Source: an uncultured virus (IMG/VR IMGVR_UViG_3300042197_001803) (lineage: Duplodnaviria; Heunggongvirae; Uroviricota; Caudoviricetes). Taken from it: a stretch of 64,000 nucleotides of DNA. Within the stretch, counting starts at the first letter, position 1; the number at the start of each line of letters is the position of its first letter. The stretch lies in IMG/VR virus record IMGVR_UViG_3300042197_001803, positions 1 to 64,000 of that record; one strand, 5' to 3'. Of this stretch, positions 22,047 to 22,700 are shown in pieces. A model generated the notes under the pieces. That model saw only the letters and a list, made by a program, of their open reading frames with translations, had not been told where the DNA came from and searched no databases. Made by a program: the position numbers and the translations under genes.

Positions 22047-22071
22047 AAAAAACCCCTCCGAAGAGGGGTTT
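22047..22071. terminator. bidirectional intrinsic terminator
   Basis: minus strand AAACCCCTC-TTCG-GAGGGGTTTTTT (UUCG loop). Confidence 0.9.
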
Positions 22072-22072
22072 A

Positions 22073-22257
22073 CTGTCTGGCTAATAGATGAATTATTTGT
22101 AAGAGAGTTTTGTAGTTTGATTTGCGAATTTTGAATTTGGCAAATTTTGACTAAAGGACTGTTCTACATCAAAATCGTATCATCAATGACTGCAAGTGTG
22201 TCGTATCTTAGAATTGTTCAACGGATAACCGTTAATACTCATCTTTCACCTAGACAG
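22073..22257 (-). ncRNA. candidate structured ncRNA closed by a long terminal stem, with internal CAAA repeats
   Basis: 5' CUGUCUAGGUGAAAGAUGAGUAUU pairs with 3' AAUAAUUCAUCUAUUAGCCAGACAG with three G-U wobbles on this strand; internal AACGG-UUAU-CCGUU hairpin; terminator follows immediately. Confidence 0.65.
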
Positions 22258-22259
22258 GC

Positions 22260-22700
22260 TTAAATTTCCGTGTTGGAGTTATGTACATCCAACTCGTCTT
22301 GAAGTTGTTCAATTTGAGTTTCTAATGTTTTAACCATTTCGTCTCTTTGAACAATCCCAATTTCCGCAGTTAGTACGGCTGATTCTCCTGGTTCTCCCCA
22401 TCTTCCTCTTGACGGTTGTTTACCTTCACTACAGTTCATCCCATTTAATTTAGAAACCATAGACTTTAACTCAGCCAATTTGAAAATTTTATCATAGACG
22501 GGAGCATTTGCTCTATGAATTTTGGTTTTCAAATCAACCAACTGTTTAGTTCCTTCGTTCCACTTTGCCAACATTTCTTTAGGTGCGTAAGGACGAACGC
22601 TTCCTTCCTCAACTGAGTTGTATTGGGACAACTTAATGAACACCTCGTTATTTTCTTTAACGAGTTTGTTTTTCAATTTAAGAGCTTGTTTAATATTCAT
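22260..22700 (-). CDS. small coiled-coil protein resembling DIP1984/DUF6847-like family
   Basis: MNIKQALKLKNKL...LVDLKTKIHRAN...IEQLQDELDVHNSNTEI. Confidence 0.6.
   Translation of the reverse strand: MNIKQALKLKNKLVKENNEVFIKLSQYNSVEEGSVRPYAPKEMLAKWNEGTKQLVDLKTKIHRANAPVYDKIFKLAELKSMVSKLNGMNCSEGKQPSRGRWGEPGESAVLTAEIGIVQRDEMVKTLETQIEQLQDELDVHNSNTEI

What the first reader, a model, noticed from the sequence alone, without database searches (positions are those of the whole stretch)
22047..22700. Coiled-coil gene followed by a ~190-nt enclosed RNA with CAAA repeats: candidate protein-RNA system
Seen: in a genome with almost no intergenic space, the 146-aa gene is followed by ~190 non-coding nt whose two ends pair over ~22 bp (CUGUCU/AGACAG, GGU/GCC, AGAUGAGU/AUUCAUCU). 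The three G-U wobbles work only on the gene's strand. The stem begins 2 nt after the stop codon and ends 1 nt before a UUCG terminator. Inside are a hairpin AACGG-UUAU-CCGUU, two GAUACGA copies, and seven C-A3/4-pyrimidine units in ~60 nt (CAAAAUU, CAAAUU, CAAAAUU, CAAAU, CAAACU, CAAAACU, CAAAU; 22095-22149). The protein looks like a DIP1984/DUF6847-type helical hairpin (recognised by eye). Inference: an oligomeric protein binding a co-transcribed repeat-bearing RNA (RNP scaffold, type III TA-like pair, or protein sponge); I know of no described function for such a pair.
Basis: partly seen in the sequence, partly recalled or inferred. Interest (0 to 1): 0.88.

Follow-up and report, generated by a model that had tools for sequence, protein, structure and literature searches.

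The report
Phage helical-protein gene with partner RNA
Directly behind a small phage gene of unknown function lies a real, conserved, folded RNA of about 187 bases that occurs only beside that gene and matches no catalogued RNA family. Gene and RNA are therefore probably the two halves of an undescribed protein-RNA particle.

Summary
Observation confirmed. On the minus strand, window 22073-22259 starts right after the stop codon of the 146-aa gene (22260-22700). It is a ~187-nt structured RNA with:
- a three-part closing stem of 17 bp;
- a covarying hairpin;
- a GAU tract;
- six in-phase heptads that each begin with C;
- an intrinsic terminator directly after it.

A sigma-70-type promoter precedes the gene.

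Covariance models built here found the RNA behind 84 of 100 homologous genes, always on the gene's strand. In those alignments:
- 82-85% of cells are paired, against 31-50% when partners are slid;
- 29-31 of 34 pairs show changes on both sides;
- G-U outnumbers A-C 234 to 48.

High-GC relatives at 30-41% protein identity follow the same plan, with six exact heptads and a tRNA about 7 nt downstream. Searches that started from the RNA found it only beside the gene. Rfam has no match.

The protein has the DIP1984/DUF6847 fold (3KDQ, Z 13.4), whose function is unknown, and is predicted to form a homodimer. Neighbouring genes are not conserved.

Best reading: a self-contained gene-plus-RNA cassette that makes an undescribed ribonucleoprotein. 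Binding and function are inferred, not shown. This scan has already found the same pair on other DNA (at least 31 genomes); I found no paper describing it.

The parts
22726..22753 (-). Sigma-70-type promoter, TTGACT-16 nt-TATAAT, upstream of the gene
   Evidence: 11 of 12 consensus matches. A TTGAC...TATAMT pair stands at the same place in many clades of homologous loci. Function as a promoter is inferred.
22260..22700 (-). 146-aa gene for a DIP1984/DUF6847-fold helical protein (coordinates include the stop codon)
   Evidence: ORF. Pfam DUF6847 E 3.9e-4 and NCBIfam DIP1984_fam E 1.6e-6, both below the curated cut-offs. AlphaFold2 model pLDDT 89.7. 3KDQ Z 13.4, rmsd 2.4 A over 140 residues. 463 close homologues; 1,666 clusters at 50% identity with E <= 0.001.
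22073..22259 (-). Structured non-coding RNA of about 187 nt, a family not in Rfam
   Evidence: Covariance-model matches: 198 bits with R1, 164 with R2, 142 with R3. Covariation. No Rfam match.
22237..22257 (-). 5' strand of closing stem P1 (P1a 22257-22252, P1b 22250-22248, P1c 22244-22237)
   Evidence: Helices 1-3 are 81-91% paired in 83 distinct sequences, and all 17 pairs show changes on both sides. The ten highest mutual-information column pairs are all P1 pairs.
22073..22093 (-). 3' strand of closing stem P1 (P1c 22093-22086, P1b 22081-22079, P1a 22078-22073)
   Evidence: Same evidence as for the 5' strand.
22220..22233 (-). Hairpin P2, AACGG-UUAU-CCGUU
   Evidence: All five pairs show changes on both sides; 85-92% paired where present. 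Some clades lack it, for example the L030 group.
22169..22184 (-). GAU tract (GAUGAUACGAUUUUGA), the 5' strand of the tentative helix P3
   Evidence: GAU...GAU...GAU is conserved in the family consensus. P3's end pairs are conserved, but its inner pairs are only 67% paired.
22145..22167 (-). Conserved unpaired core (GUAGAACAGUCCUUUAGUCAAAA)
   Evidence: Nearly invariant in relatives whose proteins are only 60-97% identical. The core keeps 60-66% identity at 30-70% protein identity, while the stems fall to 36-43%.
22099..22140 (-). Six in-phase heptads that begin with C: CCAAAUU CAAAAUU CGCAAAU CAAACUA CAAAACU CUCUUAC
   Evidence: A run of six C at exact 7-nt spacing was reached by 0 of 300 shuffles. 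Family autocorrelation peaks at lags 7-8, 14-15 and 22. The high-GC clade has six exact CA-led heptads. The 5' part (22134-22119) may pair with the GAU tract.
22050..22071 (-). Intrinsic terminator: a 9-bp stem (5 G-C pairs) with a UUCG loop and a U tract. It also serves the convergent gene 21374-22045
   Evidence: Invariant in the close clade.

Best explanation
The cassette is a self-contained transcription unit: promoter, a 146-aa gene for a DIP1984-fold protein, a ~187-nt structured RNA, then a terminator. Protein and RNA are made from one transcript.

The RNA's two ends pair into a long closing stem. This stem holds together a hairpin, a GAU tract, a sequence-conserved unpaired core and a phased row of about six heptads that begin with C.

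The most likely mechanism is that the protein, as a dimer or higher oligomer, binds this RNA to form a stable ribonucleoprotein. The likely contact sites are the conserved single-stranded core and the heptad row. The closing stem would protect the ends, and in tRNA-embedded versions tRNA-processing enzymes would cut the 3' end.

Shown here: the RNA is real, lies on the gene's strand, is conserved in structure and travels with the gene.

Inferred: protein-RNA binding, release of the RNA from the mRNA, and any cellular role. The frequent position inside tRNA arrays hints at a link with translation or tRNA biology.
For: Structure:
- Models R1 to R3 found the RNA at the expected place and strand behind 33, then 70, then 84 homologous genes.
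- Cells paired: 88.0%, 85.1% and 81.6%, against 31-50% when partners are slid. 29-31 of 34 pairs change on both sides. 0 of 500 shuffles reach the covariation score.
- The ten highest mutual-information column pairs are all in the closing stem.

Strand: G-U/U-G 234 against A-C/C-A 48 in the paired cells; 166 against 20 in P1 plus P2.

Transcription unit: promoter with 11 of 12 consensus matches and a terminator. The promoter motif is conserved across clades.

Partnership:
- An ORF-free gap of at least 140 nt follows the gene in all loci with enough sequence.
- No neighbouring gene family is shared by more than 9 of 59 clusters.
- In three whole genomes the RNA occurs once, beside the gene.
- Of 21 viral contigs holding a 16-nt core word, 13 have the gene 74-106 nt upstream. 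The other 8 have no match to the RNA model, so they are chance words.

Deep conservation: relatives at 30-41% protein identity and high G+C keep the closing stem, the GAU repeats and six exact heptads, with a tRNA-Phe about 7 nt after the stem.

Sequence constraint: the unpaired core is more conserved than the stems.

Protein:
- 3KDQ fold.
- Homodimer prediction: score 0.62, best of 3 controls 0.00. That mark was reached by 20 of 30 proteins solved as pairs of one chain and by 1 of 23 solved as single chains. The runs agree in at least 96% of contacts, and the partner's pLDDT is at least 89.
- The related entry 3KDQ was solved with several chains, so the pass may come from memory of that structure.
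Against: - No experiment or RNA-seq was available.
- The alignments were fitted to the model's structure, which inflates pairing percentages.
- Helix P3 is weak in its inner pairs (67% paired).
- The 7-nt phase is strict only in the window and in the high-GC clade. Across the AT-rich clades the period-7 power of C equals that of shuffles.
- The protein has no recognisable RNA-binding domain.
- Many invariant residues lie in the predicted dimer interface rather than on a free surface.
Confidence: 0.6

Rival explanations
1. The element is a cis-acting 3' untranslated region. It would stabilise the mRNA against 3' exonucleases, or act as a feedback operator for the protein's own synthesis, and would have no life as a separate RNA.
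For: It lies in the same promoter-to-terminator unit. The closing stem begins 2 nt after the stop codon, so a terminating ribosome and the stem must interfere with each other. No separate promoter for the RNA was seen.
Against: About 187 nt with a multi-helix fold, an unpaired core nearly invariant in close relatives and a phased repeat row is far more than is needed to stabilise an mRNA. The plan is kept down to 30% protein identity and across very different G+C content. In tRNA-embedded loci, processing would trim the 3' end.
Confidence: 0.15
2. The pair works like a toxin-antitoxin system of the RNA-antitoxin type. The protein would be harmful on its own, and the co-transcribed RNA would sequester it.
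For: The two-part cassette travels without conserved neighbours and occurs in phages and in bacterial chromosomes. In Arcicella aurantiaca it lies near a type I restriction R subunit gene. Gene and RNA co-occur strictly.
Against: No PADLOC defence model matches. The RNA is downstream of the gene, with no terminator between them to set a ratio. Its units are 7 nt, not tandem copies of about 36 nt. The protein model is helical and matches 3KDQ. Many carriers are lytic-looking jumbo-phage contigs in which the cassette sits inside tRNA arrays.
Confidence: 0.1
3. The RNA acts mainly on a host factor, for example as a decoy or sponge for a protein that binds single-stranded RNA, or for part of the translation or tRNA machinery. 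The neighbouring protein would only be a helper such as a chaperone or stabiliser.
For: The unpaired core is more conserved than the protein. The heptad row is C-rich, G-poor and A-rich and is predicted to be unpaired. 16 of 59 locus clusters have tRNA genes within the flanks, all on the same strand. One locus also carries GOLLD and freshwater-1 RNAs.
Against: The RNA was never found without the gene. The heptad sequences differ strongly between AT-rich and GC-rich hosts while the partner protein changes with them. That fits a co-evolving partner better than one universal host target.
Confidence: 0.12
4. The feature acts as DNA, for example a replication origin, iteron array or cruciform, and is not an RNA.
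For: Short direct repeats lie between inverted repeats. The opposite strand folds at least as well in a single sequence (z = -4.71).
Against: G-U outnumbers A-C by 234 to 48 on the gene strand only. The orientation relative to the gene is fixed in every locus. The element sits between a promoter and a terminator. The stems covary while the sequence drifts.
Confidence: 0.03

Closest known systems
DIP1984 family / Pfam DUF6847 (PF20935; NCBIfam NF038048; crystal structure 3KDQ from Corynebacterium diphtheriae; often labelled 'septicolysin')
   Same: Same fold: VIA-align Z 13.4, rmsd 2.4 A over 140 of 146 residues; Foldseek TM-score 0.67-0.76. Same size, and stands alone. Some close homologues carry PF20935 in precomputed annotation. 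Nearest Atlas clusters carry DUF6847.
   Different: The window's protein scores below both curated cut-offs: 20.8 against 27 bits, and 28.3 against 70 bits. The family has no described function, and I found no paper linking it to an RNA.
TRAP with the trp leader, and HutP with the hut leader (Bacillus): oligomeric proteins that read evenly spaced short RNA repeats
   Same: A row of short units at a fixed spacing in single-stranded RNA, which suggests one unit per protomer of an oligomer.
   Different: Those RNAs are 5' leaders that control downstream genes by attenuation. Here the RNA follows its partner's gene, is closed by a long stem, and has no fixed downstream gene. The units are C-led heptads, not GAG/UAG triplets. 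No sequence or fold similarity to these proteins was found. This comparison rests on my knowledge of those systems.
Ro60 (Rsr) with bacterial Y RNAs
   Same: A protein gene is adjacent to its partner non-coding RNA, and the RNA's 5' and 3' ends form a long closing stem.
   Different: Pfam reports no TROVE domain in the protein. Rfam reports no Y RNA match. This RNA has heptad and GAU tracts, not a tRNA-like module.
Type III toxin-antitoxin systems (ToxIN, CptIN, TenpIN)
   Same: A protein and a repeat-bearing RNA are encoded together as a mobile two-part cassette.
   Different: There the RNA lies upstream, consists of tandem repeats of about 34-36 nt and is cut by the endoribonuclease toxin. 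None of these features is present here.
GOLLD, ROOL and other orphan structured RNAs of phages found near tRNA genes
   Same: Carried by phages, often inside tRNA arrays, function unknown. One homologous locus has GOLLD 500 nt downstream.
   Different: This RNA is much smaller (about 187 nt against 400-800 nt), has no Rfam match and is strictly tied to one protein gene.

Membership tests
DIP1984 / DUF6847 protein family | Profile match above the curated cut-off (PF20935 27 bits; NF038048 70 bits) | tested here: not met
   20.8 bits (E 3.9e-4) and 28.3 bits (E 1.6e-6), N-terminal 60 residues only. Several homologues at 54-82% identity carry PF20935.
DIP1984 / DUF6847 protein family | Fold of the solved member 3KDQ (four helices plus a small beta hairpin, about 150 aa) | tested here: met
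   Z 13.4, rmsd 2.4 A, 140 residues aligned; the next unrelated row is Z 9.5. Foldseek probability 1.00, TM-score 0.67-0.76.
Any Rfam 15 RNA family, including RAGATH-27 (RF03100), tmRNA, Y RNA and 6S | Covariance-model match at or near the gathering score | tested here: not met
   Best match over the element is 23.5 bits against a gathering score of 47 (rimP leader, E 0.44). RAGATH-27 is not listed even at E <= 10. The whole window gives nothing at gathering. The high-GC relative gives nothing at E <= 10. ARAGORN finds no tmRNA.
Type III toxin-antitoxin | Antitoxin RNA made of tandem repeats of about 34-36 nt, upstream of the toxin gene and separated from it by a terminator | tested here: not met
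   The RNA is downstream, with no terminator between gene and RNA, and its units are 7 nt.
Type III toxin-antitoxin | Toxin with a ToxN/AbiQ-type endoribonuclease fold | tested here: inconclusive
   The model is helical and its only strong structural match is 3KDQ. Absence from a hit list does not exclude a family. No PADLOC model matches.
Retron (msr-msd RNA with reverse transcriptase) | Reverse transcriptase gene next to an RNA closed by terminal inverted repeats | tested here: not met
   No RVT_1 match in the 95.9-kb record. No conserved neighbouring gene in 59 locus clusters.
TRAP / HutP-type repeat-reading regulators | Evenly spaced short repeats in a 5' leader that controls downstream genes | tested here: not met
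   Spaced units are present, but the element follows its gene and the downstream genes vary or converge.
Ro60-Y RNA | TROVE-domain protein with an adjacent Y RNA | tested here: not met
   No TROVE domain in Pfam. No Y RNA in Rfam.

The most novel reading that the evidence does not exclude
The cassette encodes a new, widespread class of autonomous ribonucleoprotein. An oligomer of the DIP1984-fold protein would read the phased heptad row of its own co-transcribed RNA, one protomer per 7 nt. The particle would be expressed from tRNA operons, released by tRNA-processing enzymes, and would act on the translation or tRNA machinery of the host during phage takeover, and in cells that carry it chromosomally.
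Probability: 0.2. Interest if true: 0.92.

Novelty: categorically new. Interest (0 to 1): 0.8.

Why it matters
- The protein family is large: 1,666 clusters at 50% identity match the profile. It has had a solved structure since 2009 but no known function.
- Every member examined here carries a conserved structured RNA that is in no catalogue.
- If protein and RNA form a particle, that would give the DIP1984/DUF6847 family a first functional handle. It would also add a protein-partnered family to the orphan RNAs of large phages.
- The position inside tRNA arrays could point to an unknown layer of phage control over translation.
- Two cultured organisms could serve as test systems. Arcicella aurantiaca DSM 22214 carries a homologous gene followed by a weak RNA-model match (E 0.16). 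Deinococcus radiodurans holds a DUF6847 member above Pfam's cut-off.

Tried and rejected
- Phage collection: no match by DNA. By protein, only two unannotated huge-phage records.
- PHROGs and PADLOC: no family for the protein.
- PDB by sequence: nothing.
- Literature: no paper holds DUF6847, DIP1984, PF20935 or RAGATH-27. Papers with 'septicolysin' only list annotations, and the two hits for '3KDQ' are unrelated.
- Short ORF inside the RNA: the window's 19-codon frame is not kept in the 73%-identity relative (read), so I rejected it.
- ARAGORN's tRNA-Leu at 23098-23176: not supported by Rfam.
- Self-versus-cross duplex test of the closing stem: it shifts in the expected direction (median z -1.5; self is best in only 6 of 59). 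It is noisy because terminators and related arms interfere.
- Strict period-7 power of C across the AT-rich clades: no better than shuffles (median z 0.0). Only local spacing, chains of CA units (3.06 against 1.85) and the window's own run stand out.
- Extra helices or pseudoknots: none found by mutual information.
- RNA-first search of 151 genomes: besides the known cassette it hit G035 and G055. These turned out to be different heptad-repeat hairpins without the gene, so they are not members.
- Model R3 did not reach the high-GC loci. Their likeness rests on a separate MAFFT/alifold alignment and on reading.

Full report
**What is there.** The window is part of a 95.9-kb linear virus record, estimated one third complete. 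On the minus strand a 146-aa ORF runs from 22700 to 22260. It is followed by 214 nt without an ORF, up to the convergent gene 21374-22045.
- The stem CUGUCU / GGU / AGAUGAGU begins 2 nt after the stop codon. It pairs with AUUCAUCU / GCC / AGACAG about 165 nt further on, giving 17 pairs with two G-U.
- Inside are a hairpin AACGG-UUAU-CCGUU, a GAU-rich tract and an A-rich tract with CAAA units.
- One nucleotide after the stem stands a terminator with a 9-bp stem (5 G-C pairs), a UUCG loop and a U tract.
- Upstream of the gene is a TTGACT-16-TATAAT promoter-like site matching 11 of 12 consensus positions. Further upstream is another terminator-like hairpin.

So the gene and the non-coding stretch form one compact unit.

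**Is it more than chance?** The single sequence folds better than its shuffles (z -3.97), but so does the opposite strand (z -4.71). The test therefore has to be comparative.
- The protein has 463 close homologues of 142-150 aa.
- I fetched 192 loci from viral contigs, metagenomes and genomes.
- In every locus with enough sequence, the gene is followed by an ORF-free gap of at least 140 nt, usually 180-260 nt.
- In each clade the gap folds into a long-range stem of a different sequence.

**Covariance models.** I built a model from six close relatives with a hand-drawn structure (A4, R1) and iterated it.
- R1 found 33 elements, R2 found 70 and R3 found 84 among 100 sources. All lie on the gene's strand directly after the gene.
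- In one clade the element starts about 195 nt further on, behind an inserted small ORF.
- Only two marginal off-target matches appeared (E 0.22 and 0.95).
- Cells paired in the three alignments: 88.0%, 85.1% and 81.6%, against 31-50% when the 3' partners are slid by 1-3 columns.
- 29-31 of 34 pairs show changes on both sides, and no shuffle in 500 reaches the covariation score.
- The closing stem (three segments) and hairpin P2 carry this signal.
- The central helix P3, formed by the GAU tract with part of the CAAA tract, is conserved at its ends but only 67% paired in its inner pairs. I call it tentative.
- A structure-blind mutual-information scan ranks closing-stem pairs in all ten top places and finds no further helix.

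These alignments were fitted to the model, which flatters pairing. The slid controls and the mutual-information ranking argue that the signal is real.

**Strand and molecule.** In the paired cells G-U/U-G occurs 234 times and A-C/C-A 48 times; in P1 plus P2 the counts are 166 and 20. This asymmetry, the fixed orientation, and the promoter and terminator all point to an RNA read from the gene's strand rather than a DNA element.

**Conserved sequence.**
- The family consensus holds three GAU units, a core reading GuacRgucc..A.UCAA, then UUCAA, GUCAA and cuuAAaacUC.
- In the close clade the core of about 60 nt is nearly invariant although the proteins are only 60-97% identical.
- At 30-70% protein identity the unpaired core keeps 60-66% identity to the window, while the stem columns fall to 36-43% yet stay paired.

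**Heptads.**
- Earlier notes of this scan described 7-base units, so I tested this.
- Identity autocorrelation over 70 sequences peaks at lags 7-8, 14-15, 22 and 29-30.
- In the window six successive heptads begin with C (RNA positions 120-161, window 22140-22099). No shuffle in 300 reaches a run of six.
- Across the AT-rich clades the phase drifts. Strict period-7 power equals that of shuffles, and chains of CA units are only moderately enriched (3.06 against 1.85).
- In the high-GC relatives, at 30-41% protein identity on contigs binned as Verrucomicrobiota and other phyla, model R3 finds nothing. A separate alignment shows the same plan: a 13-bp closing stem, inner hairpins, GAUG repeats and six exact heptads (CAAAACU CAAGCCG CAGCCCG CAAGGCU CAAGCUU CAUAGAC). 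A tRNA-Phe follows about 7 nt after the stem. In that clade RNase P would therefore cut close to the RNA's 3' end; this is an inference.

**Partnership with the gene.**
- No neighbouring gene family is shared by more than 9 of 59 locus clusters.
- In three whole bacterial genomes the RNA model hits once, beside the gene.
- In the window's own record there is one copy.
- An RNA-first scan of 2.9 million viral contigs with a 16-nt core word gave 21 contigs. Thirteen have the gene 74-106 nt upstream. The other eight have no match to the RNA model and are chance words.
- An RNA-first search of 151 genomes gave, beside the known cassette, two genomes with different heptad-repeat hairpins that are not this RNA.

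Within what I searched, gene and RNA occur only together.

**Context.** tRNA genes lie within the fetched flanks in 16 of 59 clusters, always on the gene's strand, and sometimes as large arrays. One locus also holds GOLLD and freshwater-1 RNAs. The window itself has no tRNA supported by Rfam. In the cultured Arcicella aurantiaca the cassette is chromosomal, near a type I restriction R subunit gene.

**The protein.**
- Pfam DUF6847 and NCBIfam DIP1984_fam match only the N-terminal 60 residues and fall below their cut-offs.
- The AlphaFold2 model has pLDDT 89.7, with four helices and a small beta hairpin.
- It superposes on 3KDQ, the Corynebacterium diphtheriae protein of unknown function: Z 13.4, rmsd 2.4 A over 140 residues. 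This is well above the generic helical hairpins that follow at Z 9.5 or less (Foldseek).
- A two-copy prediction supports a symmetric homodimer: score 0.62, best of 3 controls 0.00. That mark was reached by 20 of 30 proteins solved as pairs of one chain and by 1 of 23 solved as single chains. The runs agree in at least 96% of contacts, and pLDDT is at least 89. A related multi-chain crystal exists, so this pass may reflect memory.
- Many invariant residues lie in that interface: Y27, N28, G33, L54, K58, H62, F73, E77, C90.
- The invariant basic N-terminus (K8, K10, N11) and the C-terminal helix stay free of it.
- No RNA-binding domain is recognisable.

**Comparison with known systems.**
- Rfam 15 has no match for the AT-rich or the high-GC form.
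- There is no reverse transcriptase in the record, no tmRNA and no defence-system model.
- The layout differs from type III toxin-antitoxin systems, from TRAP/HutP leaders and from Ro60-Y RNA in defining features (see the membership table). It shares with them the logic of a protein encoded beside a repeat-bearing or end-paired RNA.
- I found no paper on the pair.

**Earlier findings of this scan.** The same pair, a DIP1984-like gene with a downstream 'heptad' RNA, has been reported by this scan on other DNA. Four look-alike windows were found by sequence, and 32 notes in at least 31 genomes by words. Those notes are unchecked AI notes. What I took from them was the lead to test the 7-nt spacing and RAGATH-27. 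Their claims of abundant expression and of archaeal and giant-virus members were not tested here.

**Verdict.** The element is a genuine, uncatalogued structured RNA coupled to a DIP1984-fold protein gene in one transcription unit. A ribonucleoprotein is the best-supported reading (0.6). Binding, processing and function remain inferred. The rivals are a cis-acting 3' UTR, an RNA-antitoxin-like pair, a host-directed decoy RNA and, very unlikely, a DNA element.

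Noticed in passing
window 23098-23176 (-): ARAGORN calls a tRNA-Leu(taa) here. Rfam's tRNA model does not reach its gathering score anywhere in the window. The site overlaps a terminator-like hairpin at 23127-23103. 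It is probably a false tRNA call.
   Followed up: partly
L200 884-1050 and 1501-1695 (G035:C14:381146-381957): Two long hairpins flank a 124-aa gene of Pfam family 23S_rRNA_IVP (E 4.7e-11). Their 5' arms are (ATATTGA)n and their 3' arms are (ACACTCA/ACATTCA)n. On the opposite strand the arms pair with G-U instead of A-C. They share the heptad vocabulary (TTGA/TCAA every 7 nt) with the RNA studied here, but they are a different element.
   Followed up: partly
L063 (IMGVR_UViG_3300042352_001190), whole locus: A homologous gene-plus-RNA cassette sits among eight tRNA genes. A freshwater-1 RNA lies upstream and a GOLLD RNA (241 bits) about 500 nt downstream.
   Followed up: no
L027 1940-2128 (also the L023, L028, L071, L074, L089 and L100 clade): In this clade a 62-codon ORF with two CxxC pairs (MSGDVEFDECDFCH...CFECGVPKV) is inserted between the DIP1984-like gene and the RNA. 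The RNA therefore starts about 195 nt after the stop codon.
   Followed up: partly
window 22726-22753 (-) and the same place in related loci: A near-consensus sigma-70 promoter motif (TTGAC-17-TATAMT) is conserved upstream of the cassette in many clades. Yet other notes on this phage (T9SS cargo proteins) and the genome hits point to Bacteroidota hosts, whose usual promoter consensus differs.
   Followed up: no
L174, L177, L183, L189, L190, L193 (contigs binned as Verrucomicrobiota, Bifidobacterium and Sulfotelmatobacter MAGs): The high-GC cassettes lie inside arrays of up to 16 tRNA genes. These contigs may be phage or prophage DNA binned into bacterial MAGs.
   Followed up: no
control genomes of the genome search: Pfam DUF6847 scores above its cut-off in Deinococcus radiodurans, alone among 14 well-known control genomes. 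I could not read that locus to see whether the RNA follows the gene.
   Followed up: no
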